Below are positions 26,003 through 31,826 of a DNA stretch of 64,000 nt, one piece after another. Within the stretch, counting starts at the first letter, position 1; every line of letters starts with the position of its first letter. The stretch is from NCBI RefSeq assembly GCF_009914755.1, contig NC_060926.1. One strand, given 5' to 3'. Under the pieces are notes generated by a model. The model made no database searches, was not told where the DNA came from, and was given only the letters and a program-made list of their open reading frames with translations. Both the position numbers and the translations under genes were made by a program. The stretch is from the human T2T-CHM13v2.0 reference genome, Homo sapiens.

Positions 26003-27396
26003 TGAAAGGTGACAGCGTGCCGGCAGTCCTCACAGCCCTCGCTCGCTCTCAGCACCTCCTCTGCCTGGGCTCCCACTTTGGCGGCACTTGAGGAGCCCTT
26101 CAGCCCGCCGCTGCACTGTGGGAGCCCCTTTCTGGGCTGGCCAAGGCCGGAGCCGGCCCCCTCAGCTTGTGGGGAGGTGTGGAGTGAGAGGTGGTGGCGG
26201 GAACTGACGCTGTGCGCGGTGCTTGCGGGCCAGCGCGAGTTCCGGGTGAGCGTGGGCTGGGCAGGCCCCGCACAGGGAGCGCCCGCGGGCCCCGCCGGCC
26301 CCGGGCAGTGAGGGGCTTAGCACCTGGGCCAGCAGCTGCTGTGCTCAATTTCTCGCCGGGGCCTTAGCTGCCTTCCTGCGGGGCAGGGCTCCGGACCTGC
26401 AGCCTGCCATGCCTGAGCCTCACCCTCTCTGTGGGCTCCTGTGCGGCCGGAACCTCCCCTACGAGCGCCGCCCCCTCTTCCACGGCGCCCATTCCCATAG
26501 ACCACCCAAGGGCTGAGGAGTGGGGGCCCACCGCGCGGGACTGGCAGGCAGCTCCACCTGCGGCCCCAGTGCGGGATCCACTGGGTGAAGCCAGCTAGGC
26601 TCCTGAGTCTGGTGGGGGCGTGGAGAACCTTTATGTCTAGCTAAGGGATTGTAAATACACCCATCGGCACTCTGTATCTAGCTCAAGGTTTGTAAACACA
26701 CCAATCAGCACCCTGTGTCTAGCTCAGGGTTTGTGAATGCACCAATCCACACTCTGTATCTAGCTACTCTGGTGGGGACTTGGAGAACCTGTGTGTCCAC
26801 ACTCTGTATCTAGCTAATCTGGTGGGGACGTGGAGAACCTTTGAGTCTAGCTCAGGGATTGTAAATGCACCAATCAGCACCCTGTCAAAACAGACCACTA
26901 GACTCTACCAATCAGCAGGATGTGGGTGGGGTCAGATAAGAGAATAAAAGCAGGCTGCCCGAGCCAGCAGTGGCAACCCGCTGGGGTCCCCTTCCACACT
27001 GTGGAAGCTTTGTTCTTTAGCTCTTTGCAATGAATCTTGCTGCTGCTCACTTTTTGGGTCCACACTGCCTTTATGAGCTGTAACACTCACCGCTAAGGTC
27101 TGCAGCTTCACTCCTGAAGCCAGCCAGACCACGAACCCACGGGGAGGAAGGAACAACTCCAGATGCGCCCTCTTAAGAGATGCGCTGCCTTAAGAGCTGT
27201 AACACTCACAGCGAAGATCCGCAGCTTCACTCCTGAGCCAACGAACACACCAGAAGGAAGAAACTCTGAACACATCCGAACATCAGAAGGAACAAACTCC
27301 AGACGCACCACCTTAAGAGCTGTAACACTCACCGTGAGGGTCCACGGCTTCATTCCTGAAGTCAGTGAGACCAAGAACCCACCAATTCCGGACACA
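26003..27396 (+). mobile_element. LTR12C (ERV9) solo LTR
   Basis: tgaaaggtgacagcgtg...accaattccggacaca; CpG-rich U3; tandem CCAAT repeats (26701, 26742, 26870, 26908); GATA and AATAAAA at ~26935-26949; repeated gagctgtaacactcac; perfect 4-bp TSD gcat. Confidence 0.96.
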
Positions 27397-27559
27397 GCAT
27401 CACATATAATCATTCACCATTGTGAATTTTGACACGTTACAGGTTCCCTACCTGGATGTTCTACTGGCTTGCTGCCTTTTGTGCATGAAGACTCAAGTTT
27501 GAATTTTAAGCTTTCAACAATTATGTTATGTTCTACTAGTGTGTACTATGTTCTTATTT

Positions 27560-27790
27560 GATCCGCCCCCGCAGCTTTCTTAACACCTCTTATGACTGGG
27601 CTATGAATTTTGTACCCACTTAGATGTCCAGTCCTGGGAAATTTTGCAAATGGAAGGCAGAATTAGCGGGAGGTAGGGGGTGGGGGGTAGGCCATGGATG
27701 CGCATGCGCAGGTGTAAGTGCTAGCCCCTGCTAGGCCTTACCTTCCATCTCTCTCCTGTCAGGAGGAAAAGCACACACGTGAAGGAACCT
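27560..27790 (+). promoter_or_regulatory. Promoter-like segment at the 5' end of the MDM2 retrocopy (GC box, NRF1 palindrome, E-box)
   Basis: ccgccccc at 27563-70; TGCGCATGCGCA at 27699-27710; CACGTG at 27776-81 (a second at 28021-26). Motifs are seen; activity is not shown. Confidence 0.5.
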
Positions 27791-28915
27791 CAGCTAGATG
27801 ATCTCCCTCTCTGGCCTGTGCCGACATGTGTGACTGACAACACGATGGAGCAAGAAGTAAAGCCCGAGGGGTAACCTTAATCCCTCTGACCTGCGACCTA
27901 CTGCTTTCGCCCCCAGGAGCCTTTTTCTTCTCTGGGCCTACTGTAAGCGCCCCAGTGGCTGGAATGGAACGGTTTCCAGTCTGGAATGGTTGACACTAAT
28001 GGCCAAAGAGTAGGGGGTCCCACGTGCTTGGTTAAAAGGTGAAAGTAAATGCGGGAGTCTGGAAGGACTTCCTATAGGCACAAAATCTGCCCCCTCCCCC
28101 CCAACTTTGGGAAATATGGATTACCAACAGGTTTGTGTCAACTCAGTGTTTCAAGCACCTTGCAAGTTTCAGTTTGCGAAGAAAAGACTTTGGTGAGACC
28201 AAAGCCACTGCTTTTAAAATTGTTTAAAATTTTACAATTAGTACACAAAAGGGATTTATACTATGAATAAAGACTTCTTGGGCATTTATGGATCATAAGT
28301 TAAGAACTTCTGCACTAGAGATATATAGAGTACAGTACAGAATACAGTACACAGATCTTTCTGGGACAGAAGCTGTATTTTAGTTTGGTCAGTATCTTAT
28401 GGCTAAACTGTTATGTGAATGAGAAGCACCAGCATATTGTATAGTGTTCCAGTAATCTTCTAGGGGGTTGGTTTGGCATGCCAGCTTTCTCTGAAAGAGC
28501 ACAAGATATACAATGATCTATAGAAACTTGGTGTTAGTCATTCCACAGGAATCATTGGATTCAGGCACAGCTTGACGATAGAGTGATCAAAGGGACCCTG
28601 AGTAAGAGCTAAAGGAAGAGAAACCTTTGTCTTCAAATTGGACTTTTAGACCATGTAACTCATCTAGAATGAGAGCAATTAATCAGTGAGGCAAGGAATA
28701 CTAACATGATTAAGAACTTAGATCCAAGAACTTGTGACATGAACACAGAAATACTTACAGTATAGGTCATAGAAGTATTTTGGAAATTCAGAGAAAAAAA
28801 GAGATGACTTCTGACTAGATGAAAATTCAGATTAATTATCCAGCAAATGACAAAGTGCCACAATTCTGATGGTACTTCTCTTTCCTTTAATGAAAGGTTT
28901 GCTTTATGGGTAATA

Positions 28916-29359
28916 CAGGCTGAGTATTTCTTATTCTAAATGCTTGGGACCAGAAGTGTTTGGACAAGAAATGAATCCTGCCAGGCCAAGGCAGGCGGAT
29001 CACTTGAGGTCAGGAGTTCGAGACCAGTTTGGATAATATGGTGAAACCTCATCTCTACTTAAAAATAAAAATAGCTGTGCATGGTGGCACATGCCTGTAA
29101 TCTCAGGTACTTGGGAGGATGAGGCAGGAGAATGACTTGAACCCAGGAGGTGGAGGTTGCAGTGAGCTGAGATGGTGCACCATTGCACTCCAGCCTGGGC
29201 AACAGGGTGAGACACTATCTCGAAAAGGAAAAAAAAGAAATGTATCCTCCCCTTCTAGCCCATTTCTCCAATGAGCGTTTCCCTGAGTGTCATGGTGGTG
29301 CTCAAAAAATTTTGGATTTGGGAGCATTTCAGATTTTTGGGTTAGGGATATACAACCTG
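28916..29359 (+). mobile_element. Tigger4 (Zombi)-type DNA transposon inserted in the MDM2 retrocopy
   Basis: TIRs caggctgagtat / atatacaacctg; aaatgcttgggaccagaagtgttt; TA duplication; MDM2 homology resumes exactly (gtaaTA|agagaaatatgttgtgaa). Confidence 0.88.
28981..29237 (+). mobile_element. 5'-truncated AluS inside Tigger4
   Basis: Alu body plus A tail; TSD aagaaatgaatcct/aagaaatgtatcct. Confidence 0.92.
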
Positions 29360-31826
29360 TAAGAGAAATATGTTGTGAAAGCAGCAGTAGCAGTGAATTG
29401 ACAGAGATGCATCAAATCCGGATCTTAATACTGGTTTAAGTGAGCATTCAGGTGACTGGTGGGATCAGGATTCAGTTTCAGATCAATTAATTGCAGAATT
29501 TGAATTTGAGTCTCTCGGAGTTTACAGCCTTAATGTAGAACAACAAGAATTCTCAGATGAAGGTGATGAGGTGTGTCCAGTTACTGATTATTAGACATGG
29601 GGAGAGTGGTACAGATTCATTTGATGAAGGTCCTAAAATTGCCTTAGCTGCCTTGGACATGTACTTTATTAAATGAAATTAATCCTCCTCTTCTAGGCCA
29701 TTTCAACAGATGTTGGGCCCTTTGTGAGAACTGACTTCCTGAAGACAAAGTGATAGAGGGAAAATAAGCTCAACCTGAGTAGAAGGGGCTTTGATGCTCC
29801 TGATTATAAAACCAAACAAAAAACCTATAGTGAATTACTCCAAAGAGTAATATGTTCATGTGTGGAGGAAAATGATGAGAGAACTCACATCAGCCTCCCA
29901 TTCCCAAGAGACCGAGCACTGTTGTCAGCCAGCAACTTCTAATAGCATCATTTAGAGCTGCCAAGAAAATGTCAAAGACCTTGAGTGGAAAGAAACAAAC
30001 AAGAAAGAAGAAAGTGTGAATCTAGTTTTCTCCTTAATGCCATTGAACTTTGTGTGCTTTAAAGCATACAACCTAAAAATGGTTGCATCAGCCATGGCAA
30101 TAAAGGACATCTAATGGAATGTTTTACATGTGCAAAAAAGCTAAAAAAGAGATGAGTCAGTGTAAAGACAGCCAGTTCAAATGATTCTGCTTACATCCCC
30201 TAGTTGGCCTGTTCATAAAAGTAGAATTTCTATCTATATAACTCTAAATATTAGACAACATAAAAAGTATTATTAATTTTTTTACATGTATCAAAGCAAA
30301 AAAGTATCTTAGCCCATGTGCATTTATTTTCTTTTGTTCAGTTTACCTACTTTTCTGGGTGGGGGGCAGAGGGTGGTAATAAATATTTTCTTCCTTTTAG
30401 GAAAAATTTTATTTGTTTATATTTTATATTTGGGGTTCAATGTAATTGGAATTGGATATATAGCTCATCCTTTACACCTAAGCCCCTATATTTTAAATCA
30501 TGTCTACTTTCTTTTAAATGAGAAGTATCTGATTTTTGAAATATGTATGTGTTTGGGGGGATCATTTAAATGTAACTTATTTAATACTTTTCATGTAAGA
30601 AGGAAAAGTTTCTGTGAAAAATTTAATATTTAAATTTTAGATCTTAAATCTTCTCATCTTTAGTTTCTCTGCTCTTTCAGAGGCTCTTAAAATACTCTTT
30701 TGAGATAAAAAATAAATTGGTAGTTATATTTGGTGCTATGTAAGTAAAAATGTACTTATTTTCCAGTCTCTTCAGTTTGGAAAGGATACGTGGTAATGAT
30801 GGTGTCAATCAAGGTATCTTTGAGAATATCCATCATTTACCCATAAGATCAAACTTTTTAAGGCCCTCTAACAGAATATGGAGTTGTCCTGGGGGGTCCA
30901 ACCTGGTATCCAGGCCCTTTGTCACACCTGATCTCAGGATTTAGTGAAATCTATTGTTTCTCCTAAGTGGAAAACAGTTCTAAGACATTTGAAATTTACT
31001 GGGCTAGGTTCCATAATTCCTGGTAGTTGCCTAGGTTTCTGACCCTTACTTAAGGCAAGTTTAGAAACCAGTGAATTCAGAAAGATAAACTCAGAAATTT
31101 GATAAACAGAAAATTTGTTCATTTTAAAATTAGCCAGAAAGGTTACAACTTCTAAGTGAATTACAAAGTACTCATCACTTTCCTTTAAGAATCGTAGGTT
31201 CAGAACACAGAATTCTAAAATATCTCTCAAACTGTGTAGATTAACTTATTTACATATTTATATGTGAATCTTCAGCAAAGTAGTGCAAATAACCAGTGTG
31301 ATTTAGGGTCCCATTATTTTTCCTCCATATATGATCATTGTACATATTTGGGGGTGGACAATAACAAACTGAGCTATAAGTTTAGAATTGAACTGAAGGA
31401 TAATTTCTCACACCAAATTTGTGTGCCAGTTACTAACAATACATTGTTCTTACAAACTTTAAAAATGAAAGCCACACAAATAAATACCTTACATATGTAT
31501 ACATATTTATGTAGAAGATGAATGGTTGAACAGAACTTTAGCCAAAGAGTGGTCCTCAACTACAGGAAAGCTTTATTAATTTGAAATTTATAATATTTCT
31601 AGTAGAAGTAAGTAAATTTATCCTGAGGAGAGTGGGTAGTATAAATGAGATTATAAACCATGTATACCCTGACTATATGTAGCAGTGATTATGCCATTTA
31701 CAAAACATTTAAATATGGGTGCAAATGTAGTGTCATTACACATGCCTATGGATTACTAAAGTACTCTTGTCTAAATTTTTAGGTTTAATATACATATACT
31801 ATTTATTGATTTACACATAAGCAGTT

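What the first reader, a model, noticed from the sequence alone, without database searches (positions are those of the whole stretch)
26003..30640. Full-length MDM2 retrocopy downstream of a sense LTR12C promoter: candidate germline or epigenetically inducible p53-pathway transcript
Seen: an intronless, heavily decayed MDM2 copy (5'UTR to 3'UTR) and an intact solo LTR12C with TSD, on the same strand and ending ~360 bp upstream. Established: LTR12C elements are NF-Y-driven promoters active in testis and induced by HDAC/DNMT inhibitors; one drives the germ-cell p63 isoform GTAp63. Inference: a younger LTR may have re-awakened an ancient MDM2 copy as a lncRNA, small-RNA source or micropeptide gene related to the p53 network. 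I do not recall an annotated gene matching this.
Basis: partly seen in the sequence, partly recalled or inferred. Interest (0 to 1): 0.85.

Follow-up and report, generated by a model that had tools for sequence, protein, structure and literature searches.

The report
Dead MDM2 retrocopy beside LTR12C
This is an ancient, thoroughly broken processed copy of the MDM2 gene that happens to lie 386 bases downstream of a much younger, structurally intact retroviral LTR12C promoter, and nothing available shows that the pair is transcribed or has any role in the p53 pathway.

Summary
Window 27783 to about 31825 (+) is an intronless copy of MDM2 from chr12. It is colinear with every exon from the P1 5'UTR to a 3'UTR poly(A) signal.

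The copy is dead:
- 80.0% identity over 2099 aligned bases.
- ATG changed to ATA.
- 24 frameshifting indels and 10 in-frame stops.
- Split by a TA-flanked transposon carrying an Alu.

RefSeq already lists part of it as pseudogene LOC100130841.

Window 26003-27396 (+) is a full-length solo LTR12C with a 4-bp duplication (GCAT) and intact promoter motifs.

- No sense ORF carries a Pfam domain.
- The longest exact word shared with MDM2 mRNA is 24 nt.
- The LTR is absent from the one list of activated LTR12Cs I could read. That list covers four cell lines treated with 5-aza-CdR or CRISPRa.
- Testis and HDAC-inhibitor data could not be examined.

The most likely reading is two unrelated insertions, at least about 40 million years apart.

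One side observation: the copy preserves an 87-nt stop-containing cassette exon that still has splice sites in today's MDM2 intron.

The parts
25999..26002 (.). 5' copy of the 4-bp target-site duplication GCAT of the LTR
   Evidence: 9 of 11 closest family copies also show a perfect 4-bp duplication
26003..27396 (+). Full-length solo LTR12C (ERV9 LTR), TG...CA, 1394 bp
   Evidence: 26 other genomic places align over query 1-1393 at 84-89%. Four of five guides designed on the RepeatMasker LTR12C consensus match exactly and one has a single mismatch. No ERV9 internal sequence lies between the two GCAT copies.
26003..26600 (+). GC-rich 5' extension of the LTR (GC 0.71, 41 CpG, CpG o/e 0.55)
   Evidence: The review PMC11853044 says LTR12C/D/E often carry a 5' extension of about 600 nt.
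26636..26915 (+). U3 enhancer repeats: six unit cores spaced 41, 41, 41, 50 and 37 nt, four CCAAT boxes, three TCTGTATCTAGCT motifs and two GTGGGGA motifs
   Evidence: motif definitions from PMC11853044
26943..26950 (+). TATA-like AATAAAAG of the LTR core promoter, retained. The U3/R border, which is the expected start site, lies shortly downstream.
   Evidence: 20-nt region, the window differing from the commonest form (7 of 11 closest copies) only at its first base. Guide 21 matches exactly at 26951. The start-site position is inferred, not measured.
27029..27034 (+). The LTR's own R-region poly(A) signal is mutated to AATGAA
   Evidence: 11 of 11 closest copies keep AATAAA here. The next AATAAA on the + strand is at 28266.
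27071..27382 (+). U5 repeats: three copies of about 70 nt
   Evidence: the review describes 72-bp U5 repeats
27397..27400 (.). 3' copy of the target-site duplication GCAT
27401..27782 (.). Spacer with no significant match to the MDM2 locus
   Evidence: only non-colinear words with E above 2
27783..28109 (+). Retrocopy, MDM2 exon 1 (P1 5'UTR), 69.7% identity. No piece from the parental intron 1 or P2 exon region was detected.
28110..28925 (+). Retrocopy, coding exons from the ATG exon to the first part of the 161-nt exon. ATG is ATA at 28114. RefSeq LOC100130841 covers 28175-28689.
28272..28371 (+). Extra 87-nt cassette exon (altA), equal to C12 68794185-68794271, 86.2% identity. Here it is expanded by a 13-nt insertion.
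   Evidence: homology starts and ends exactly at an AG and a GT in the parental intron. The parental copy has an in-frame TGA.
28695..28818 (+). Second extra piece (altB). The first 43 nt equal C12 68806409-68806451, starting at an AG, at 83.7% identity. The remaining 79 or so nt have no match.
   Evidence: (45 of 200 shuffles reach the observed score for the remainder)
28926..29359 (.). TA-flanked dispersed repeat inserted into the retrocopy. It looks like a Tc1/mariner-type MITE (name recalled) and has an Alu at about 28979-29240 inside.
   Evidence: The parental exon is continuous across the site. The right arm gave 586 first-look candidates; 39 other scored places match at 78-94%.
29360..30203 (+). 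Retrocopy, remaining coding exons up to the former stop codon
30204..31825 (+). Retrocopy, 3'UTR. The last significant parental match is at 31792. The parental AATAAA at about C12 68823743 aligns near 31800-31812.
31826..32185 (+). 360-bp solo LTR of a very abundant family (THE1/MST-like, name recalled), abutting the retrocopy's 3' end where a poly(A) tail would be expected
   Evidence: 8487 first-look candidates; 39 other scored places at 83-87%, most covering about bases 1-360

Best explanation
Two unrelated retro-insertions lie next to each other by chance.

First insertion. Roughly 70-90 million years ago an MDM2 mRNA was reverse-transcribed into this gene desert. The age is inferred from divergence with a recalled neutral rate. 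The mRNA started at the P1 promoter. It carried one or two non-canonical cassette exons and ended at an internal 3'UTR poly(A) site. The copy has decayed neutrally ever since. Along the way it acquired a DNA-transposon insertion, an Alu and a MaLR-type LTR.

Second insertion. Tens of millions of years later an ERV9 provirus integrated 386 bp upstream in the same orientation. It then collapsed to a solo LTR12C.

The LTR keeps the motifs of a competent, normally silenced LTR12C promoter. If it is derepressed, it would probably make a run-through noncoding RNA over the pseudogene. That RNA could encode no MDM2-like protein and would have little sequence-specific reach on MDM2.

Shown: the identities, boundaries, order of events and loss of coding capacity. 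Inferred: the ages, the promoter competence and the lack of function.
For: - Exon-by-exon colinearity with chr12 MDM2, with no introns.
- Parent named as Mdm2 by PDB.
- 80.0% identity and K2P 0.234 over 2099 aligned nt.
- ATG changed to ATA. 24 of 30 indel events in coding exons are not multiples of three. 10 in-frame stops among 443 ungapped codons. Codon differences are 159 non-synonymous to 56 synonymous, as expected without selection.
- The TA-flanked repeat and the Alu interrupt one parental exon.
- The LTR is full length and its closest copies are 90.3-92.3% identical. The review PMC11853044 dates ERV9/LTR12 entry to about 30 Myr ago and its spread until about 6 Myr ago (passages).
- No Pfam domain in the 73-, 105- and 89-aa sense ORFs or in the 50-aa piece.
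- Longest exact word shared with the parental mRNA model is 24 nt, at one position.
- No Rfam family in 25000-33000.
- Table S1 of PMC11317136 is in hg19 and sorted. It goes from chr2:1129540 straight to chr2:27333552. So this LTR is not among the LTR12Cs upregulated in HEK293T (5-aza-CdR, CRISPRa), A2780, MCF7 or HCT116.
- RefSeq shows no transcript from the LTR. The nearest lncRNA, at 38600-39069, has its own TATA-like box and no acceptor at its start.
- Zero papers contain LOC100130841.
Against: - The LTR core promoter is intact: TATA-like box, four U3 CCAAT boxes, GATA and GTGGGGA motifs, and exact matches to guides 10, 20 and 21.
- Its own poly(A) signal is mutated to AATGAA. The next AATAAA is 1.3 kb downstream, inside the retrocopy. 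Both features would favour run-through transcription if the LTR fires.
- The negative expression evidence is narrow. It covers four cell lines and the authors' thresholds, and the CRISPRa guide 15 has one mismatch in this copy.
- Testis, germ cells and HDAC inhibitors were not examined.
- One supplement search in PMC10593957 found nothing. It could not match tab-separated coordinates, and two files were not searched, so it carries no weight.
Confidence: 0.85

Rival explanations
1. The LTR12C is an inducible promoter at this locus, in testis or after HDAC/DNMT inhibition. It makes an unspliced or weakly spliced run-through RNA across the pseudogene. That RNA is a by-product without function, like many treatment-induced LTR12C transcripts.
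For: - Promoter motifs are intact and the R-region poly(A) signal is lost.
- PMC11317136 reports that activated LTR12Cs often give transcripts ending at the next poly(A) signal or reading through several (passages).
- The review reports broad induction of LTR12 by epigenetic drugs.
Against: - The LTR is not among the upregulated LTR12Cs of Table S1 in four cell lines.
- No RefSeq transcript model starts there (hub table).
- The LTR has 59 CpGs, and the CpG-rich 5' part is the kind of sequence that is usually methylated (the methylation itself is inference).
Confidence: 0.12
2. The LTR12C has re-awakened the MDM2 copy as a functional p53-network element: a lncRNA or miRNA decoy, a source of small RNAs against MDM2, or a micropeptide gene.
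For: - Sense orientation and 386-bp proximity.
- About 4 kb of MDM2-derived sequence, including 1.6 kb of 3'UTR.
- Precedent of LTR12C promoters for TP63 and TNFRSF10B (review Table 1).
Against: - Neutral decay pattern: 159 non-synonymous to 56 synonymous codon differences, 10 stops, 24 frameshifts and a lost ATG.
- No Pfam domain in any long sense ORF. The 73-aa ORF at 28049-28270 overlaps only about 30 MDM2-like residues.
- Only one 24-nt exact word is shared with MDM2 mRNA, and 41 positions carry words of 16 nt or more.
- 3'UTR mismatch of 20.4% plus many indels.
- No transcription evidence.
- Nothing in print: searches found no paper on this locus.
Confidence: 0.03

Closest known systems
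RefSeq pseudogene LOC100130841 (MDM2 oncogene, E3 ubiquitin protein ligase pseudogene)
   Same: It is the same locus and strand. It is the best-preserved 515 bp (28175-28689) of the copy described here.
   Different: The annotation covers only about one eighth of the copy. The copy really spans 27783 to about 31825: 5'UTR, all coding exons, two extra pieces and 1.6 kb of 3'UTR. Searching the genome with the parental last exon, no other place scored above the Alu-only hits of at most 116 bits (1119 candidates, 40 scored).
LTR12C alternative promoters of cellular genes, such as TP63 (GTAp63), TNFRSF10B, GBP2/5 and SEMA4D
   Same: A solo LTR12C in sense orientation upstream of another transcription unit, with NF-Y, GATA and MZF1-type motifs and a TATA-like box retained (review PMC11853044).
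   Different: Those LTRs splice into intact coding genes and have transcript evidence. Here the downstream unit is a dead pseudogene. No donor matching MAGGTRAG was found and there is no transcript evidence (hub table).
Expressed pseudogene decoys, PTENP1 type (recalled, not read here)
   Same: A processed pseudogene of a cancer-pathway gene that retains 3'UTR-derived sequence.
   Different: As I recall it, PTENP1 is young and nearly identical to PTEN in the relevant 3'UTR part. This copy is about 20% mismatched with many indels, so shared miRNA sites are unlikely to survive. That was not tested site by site.
Retrocopies as fossils of ancestral splice isoforms
   Same: The copy records a P1-initiated MDM2 mRNA with an 87-nt cassette exon whose splice sites still exist in the parent.
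   Different: Whether that exon is annotated or used today could not be checked here. Two literature searches listed nothing specific.

Membership tests
Processed pseudogene (retrocopy) of MDM2 | Colinear homology to the parental exons with all introns absent | tested here: met
   Eleven canonical exons plus two extra pieces are contiguous in the window. On chr12 they are spread over 36 kb.
Processed pseudogene (retrocopy) of MDM2 | The parent is MDM2 | tested here: met
   Parental last exon equals PDB 8bgu_F Mdm2 residues 301-491, E 2.4e-129. The window translation hits Mdm2 residues 223-274, E 5.5e-11. The parental ORF is 491 aa.
Processed pseudogene (retrocopy) of MDM2 | 3' end at a parental poly(A) site, followed by a poly(A) tail | tested here: inconclusive
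   Homology ends where the parent has AATAAA. No A-rich tail is visible, and a 360-bp LTR sits exactly there.
Processed pseudogene (retrocopy) of MDM2 | Flanking target-site duplication | tested here: not met
   No shared word of 7 nt or more between 27700-27800 and either candidate 3' flank. This is expected at about 20% decay and does not argue against retroposition.
Processed pseudogene (retrocopy) of MDM2 | Loss of coding capacity (pseudogene rather than retrogene) | tested here: met
   ATG changed to ATA, 24 frameshifting indels and 10 in-frame stops. No Pfam domain in the sense ORFs.
LTR12C (ERV9 solo LTR) | TG...CA termini with a short target-site duplication and no internal provirus | tested here: met
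   TGAAAG...GACACA flanked by GCAT on both sides. 9 of 11 closest copies show a perfect 4-bp duplication and 2 have one mismatch.
LTR12C (ERV9 solo LTR) | U3 tandem repeats of about 41 nt carrying CCAAT, TCTGTATCTAGCT and GTGGGGA motifs (5-17 units per review PMC11853044) | tested here: met
   TRF period 41 (3.2 copies) and period 50 (2 copies). Six unit cores, four U3 CCAAT, three GATA-type and two U3 GTGGGGA motifs.
LTR12C (ERV9 solo LTR) | U5 repeats of about 72 bp | tested here: met
   Three copies of 70 nt at 27071, 27190 and 27313.
LTR12C (ERV9 solo LTR) | Match to the LTR12C consensus rather than to LTR12, B, D, E or F | tested here: inconclusive
   I tested 5 of the 21 guides designed on the RepeatMasker LTR12C consensus (PMC11317136 Table S3). 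Four are exact and one has a single mismatch. A 5' extension of about 600 nt is present. No Dfam or RepeatMasker run was possible, so LTR12D/E are not formally excluded.
LTR12C-driven transcription unit (TINAT or GTAp63 type) | Transcripts initiating in the LTR and continuing into the downstream unit | not testable with these tools
   No RNA, CAGE or chromatin data are available here. The only list read is negative, and the RefSeq table has no such model.
LTR12C-driven transcription unit (TINAT or GTAp63 type) | A splice donor or an ORF that gives a defined product | tested here: not met
   No MAGGTRAG donor in 26961-29000. The sense ORFs of 73, 105 and 89 aa have no Pfam hit.

The most novel reading that the evidence does not exclude
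In germ cells or under HDAC/DNMT inhibition the intact LTR12C fires. Its own poly(A) signal is mutated, so the RNA runs across about 4 kb of MDM2-derived sequence. This RNA modulates MDM2 or p53 output, for example by competing for RNA-binding proteins or microRNAs that recognise surviving 3'UTR blocks.
Probability: 0.03. Interest if true: 0.6.

Novelty: already known. Interest (0 to 1): 0.12.

Why it matters
As it stands it matters little. It is a RefSeq-listed pseudogene next to one of several thousand LTR12 elements.

Two modest points of value remain:
- The pseudogene annotation covers only 515 bp of a copy about 4 kb long.
- The copy is a dated snapshot of an old MDM2 mRNA. That mRNA started at P1 and included an 87-nt stop-containing cassette exon that still has splice sites in human MDM2. 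This could guide a look for regulated unproductive splicing of MDM2.

If the LTR-driven RNA existed and acted on MDM2, it would be a primate-specific input into p53 control. Nothing here points that way.

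Tried and rejected
- Literature on the locus. LOC100130841 gave 0 papers. 'MDM2P1' gave 3 papers; judged from their titles and abstract openings in the listing, none concerns this locus, and I did not open them. 'MDM2' with processed pseudogene or retrocopy listed nothing on this locus.
- Brocks et al. 2017 (TINATs) is not held by DOI, so its transcript table was not seen.
- Supplement searches by coordinate failed. The search does not match tab-separated cells, as the positive controls showed, so I read the table rows directly.
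- A search of the PMC10593957 supplements for coordinates, LOC100130841 and MDM2 found nothing. Two files were not searched and the coordinate format may not match, so it is uninformative.
- 5' extension of the retrocopy beyond 27783: only non-colinear words with E above 2.
- Continuation of the 3'UTR beyond the 360-bp LTR: the alignment decays to noise.
- A parental match for 28738-28816: not significant, 45 of 200 shuffles reach the score.
- Extra constraint on the 87-nt exon: 12 of 87 mismatches against 20.4% in the distal 3'UTR, P = 0.078, not significant.
- Rfam: no family.
- The RefSeq lncRNA at 38600-39069 as a downstream exon of an LTR transcript: rejected, because it has its own TATA-like box and no acceptor at its start.
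- TIRs of the inserted repeat were not found by the inverted-repeat tool. Its repeat nature rests and on the TA flanks.

Full report
WHAT IS THERE

The window lies in a held human assembly (G000, contig C2), so the copy could be compared with its source.

Window 29360-30200 is contiguous here. On contig C12 it matches four separate pieces: 68808449-511 (86%), 68815408-566 (83%), 68816247-361 (79%) and 68818859-9416 (73%).

I fetched 50 kb of C12. A sensitive BLAST then maps window 27783-31792 colinearly, all plus/plus, onto C12 68787772-68823727.

From the hit boundaries I built the parental exon model. It has 11 exons, every junction is AG/GT, and the ORF is 491 aa.

The gene is named by solved structures:
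- The parental last exon translates to residues 301-491 of PDB 8bgu_F, 'E3 ubiquitin-protein ligase Mdm2', E 2.4e-129.
- The window's own open 50-aa stretch (29421-29572) hits residues 223-274 of the same chain, E 5.5e-11, and hits nothing else.

When the genome was searched with the parental last exon, only C12 and this locus matched outside the Alu part of the query (1119 candidates, 40 scored).

STATE OF THE COPY

A global alignment of the spliced parental model to the window, with the inserted repeat left out, gives 2099 aligned bases, 80.0% identity and K2P 0.234. Per-exon identity ranges from 68.7% to 86.2%.

In the canonical coding exons:
- 30 indel events, of which 24 are not multiples of three.
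- 10 stop codons in the parental frame among 443 ungapped codons.
- The start codon reads ATA, at 28114.
- 159 non-synonymous against 56 synonymous codon differences. This is about the 3:1 ratio expected without selection.

Other points on coding and sequence reach:
- Among the longer sense ORFs of the region, those of 73 aa (28049-28270), 105 aa (30316-30633, 3'UTR-derived) and 89 aa (27163-27432, inside the LTR) have no Pfam hit at E up to 1. Nor does the 50-aa piece.
- The longest exact word shared with the parental mRNA model is 24 nt, at 29462. Only 41 positions start a shared word of 16 nt or more.

Anatomy of the source mRNA:
- Exon 1 (P1 5'UTR) is joined directly to the ATG exon. Nothing from parental intron 1, where the P2 exon lies (location recalled), was detected.
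- The 3' end coincides with an AATAAA in the parental 3'UTR, about 4.3 kb genomic past the stop.
- No poly(A) tail or target-site duplication is recognisable.
- A 360-bp member of a very abundant LTR family sits exactly at that end: 8487 first-look candidates, and 39 other scored places at 83-87%.

Later insertions:
- The 161-nt parental exon is split at a TA by a 434-bp element (28926-29359), with TA on both sides.
- The right arm of that element is a dispersed repeat: 586 candidates, and 39 other scored places at 78-94%.
- It carries an Alu at about 28979-29240.
- The parent has Alus in its 3'UTR that the copy lacks.

Age (inference). The mismatch fraction is similar in coding exons (18.4%) and in the distal 3'UTR (20.4%), so most change is on the pseudogene's side. 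At a recalled neutral rate of about 2.2e-9 per site per year, this suggests roughly 70-90 Myr.

THE LTR

Window 26003-27395 as query gave 4212 first-look candidates. Of the 40 that were scored, 26 other places align over the entire query at 84-89%.

I compared the window's copy pairwise with the 11 best copies and built no consensus:
- All 11 run one base further and end in CA. The element is therefore 26003-27396.
- 9 of 11 have a perfect 4-bp target-site duplication. The window's copy has GCAT on both sides.
- Aligned identity to the window's copy is 90.3-92.3%.

Its parts fit the description of LTR12 in the review PMC11853044 (passages read):
- A GC-rich 5' extension of about 600 nt.
- U3 repeats of period 41, with six unit cores, four CCAAT boxes, three TCTGTATCTAGCT motifs and two GTGGGGA motifs.
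- A TATA-like AATAAAAG.
- Three U5 repeats of about 70 nt.

I tested 5 of the 21 guide RNAs that PMC11317136 designed on the RepeatMasker LTR12C consensus (Table S3). Four match exactly. Guide 15, the one used for CRISPRa, has one mismatch.

I could not run RepeatMasker, so LTR12D/E are not formally excluded.

One peculiarity: the R-region AATAAA, kept in 11 of 11 closest copies, is AATGAA here. The next AATAAA or ATTAAA on the + strand is at 28266, inside the retrocopy.

The review dates ERV9/LTR12 entry to about 30 Myr ago, with spread until about 6 Myr ago. The LTR is therefore far younger than the retrocopy. It lies outside the retrocopy, 386 bp upstream. The spacer has no MDM2 homology.

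DOES THE PAIR DO ANYTHING?

The LTR looks like a competent, normally silenced LTR12C promoter.

Against it:
- The downstream sequence is a neutral wreck (see above).
- No donor matching MAGGTRAG lies in 26961-29000.
- RefSeq has no transcript from the LTR.
- The one nearby lncRNA (38600-39069) has TATATAAAT just before its start, no acceptor there, and a normal GT/AG intron, so it stands alone.
- Rfam finds nothing in 25000-33000.

The only expression list I could read is Table S1 of PMC11317136, 'upregulated LTR12C elements'. It covers HEK293T with 5-aza-CdR and with two CRISPRa systems, and A2780, MCF7 and HCT116 with CRISPRa. The word LTR12C occurs 647 times in the file, headers included.
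- The table is sorted. Its chr2 rows go 1129540, 27333552, 36915221.
- The 27.33-Mb row is the CGREF1 LTR12C. The review lists that element at hg38 27110685, so the table is in hg19.
- This locus is at 22.2 Mb in T2T and must fall between the first two rows. It is therefore absent from the list.

Limits of this evidence: it covers four cell lines and the authors' thresholds, with a one-mismatch guide, and includes no HDAC inhibitor and no germ cells. Brocks et al. 2017 is not held. A supplement search in PMC10593957 was uninformative.

Nothing on the locus is in print by my searches.

VERDICT

- Observation: confirmed, with corrected coordinates.
- Identity: a RefSeq-listed MDM2 processed pseudogene, annotated over only 515 bp of about 4 kb, plus an ordinary solo LTR12C.
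- Interpretation: unsupported. Chance juxtaposition of two insertions separated by tens of millions of years is the best reading (0.85).
- An incidental inducible run-through RNA is possible (0.12).
- A p53-network function is very unlikely (0.03).

SIDE OBSERVATION

The copy contains two pieces that are absent from the canonical mRNA.

First piece, window 28272-28371:
- It equals C12 68794185-68794271, an 87-nt stretch inside the parental intron between the 75-nt and 134-nt coding exons.
- Homology begins exactly after an AG and ends exactly before GTGAGC. Both junctions to the neighbouring exons are exact.
- Identity is 86.2%.
- In the parental frame it contains a TGA.
- Its 5' part, together with the adjacent intron, belongs to an old dispersed repeat: 10 other places at 75-83%, covering only the first half of the query. 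It therefore looks like an exonised repeat fragment that was already spliced into MDM2 mRNA when the copy was made.
- It is no more diverged than canonical exons: 13.8% mismatch against 18.4% in coding exons. The difference from the distal 3'UTR is not significant (P = 0.078).

Second piece:
- Window 28695-28737 equals C12 68806409-68806451, starts at an AG and is 83.7% identical.
- The next 79 or so nt have no significant parental match.

Whether either exon is annotated or used today could not be checked. Two literature searches listed nothing specific (listings only).

Noticed in passing
window 28272-28371; parent G000 C12 68794185-68794271 (L007 2185-2271): The retrocopy preserves an 87-nt cassette exon with exact junctions. 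In today's MDM2 it is an AG/GT-flanked intronic stretch with an in-frame TGA, and part of it derives from an old dispersed repeat. It is a candidate ancient unproductive ('poison') exon of MDM2.
   Followed up: partly
window 28695-28818; parent C12 68806409-68806451: A second non-canonical piece lies between the 97-nt and 161-nt exons. Its first 43 nt match a parental intron stretch that starts at an AG. The other 79 or so nt have no significant match, and in the parent an Alu follows about 20 bp after the matching stretch.
   Followed up: partly
window 27029-27034: The LTR12C's own R-region poly(A) signal reads AATGAA here, while 11 of 11 closest family copies keep AATAAA.
   Followed up: yes
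window 25471-25977: An L1-like internal fragment (identity recalled, about 25487-25961) is flanked by a perfect 16-nt direct repeat, TCAAATTTGGACTTTT, with no obvious poly(A) tail.
   Followed up: partly
window 38590-39069: The RefSeq lncRNA LOC124905953 has TATATAAAT immediately before its annotated start, a GT/AG intron (38692-38895) and an ATTAAA near its end. It looks like a self-contained small unit, unrelated to the LTR.
   Followed up: partly
window 31826-32185: A full-length 360-bp solo LTR of a very abundant family (THE1/MST-like by recall) sits exactly where the retrocopy's poly(A) tail should be.
   Followed up: yes
window 35270-35390: A long (TG/TA/CA)n microsatellite lies next to an Alu that is nested in another Alu-like element (34815-35250).
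   Followed up: no
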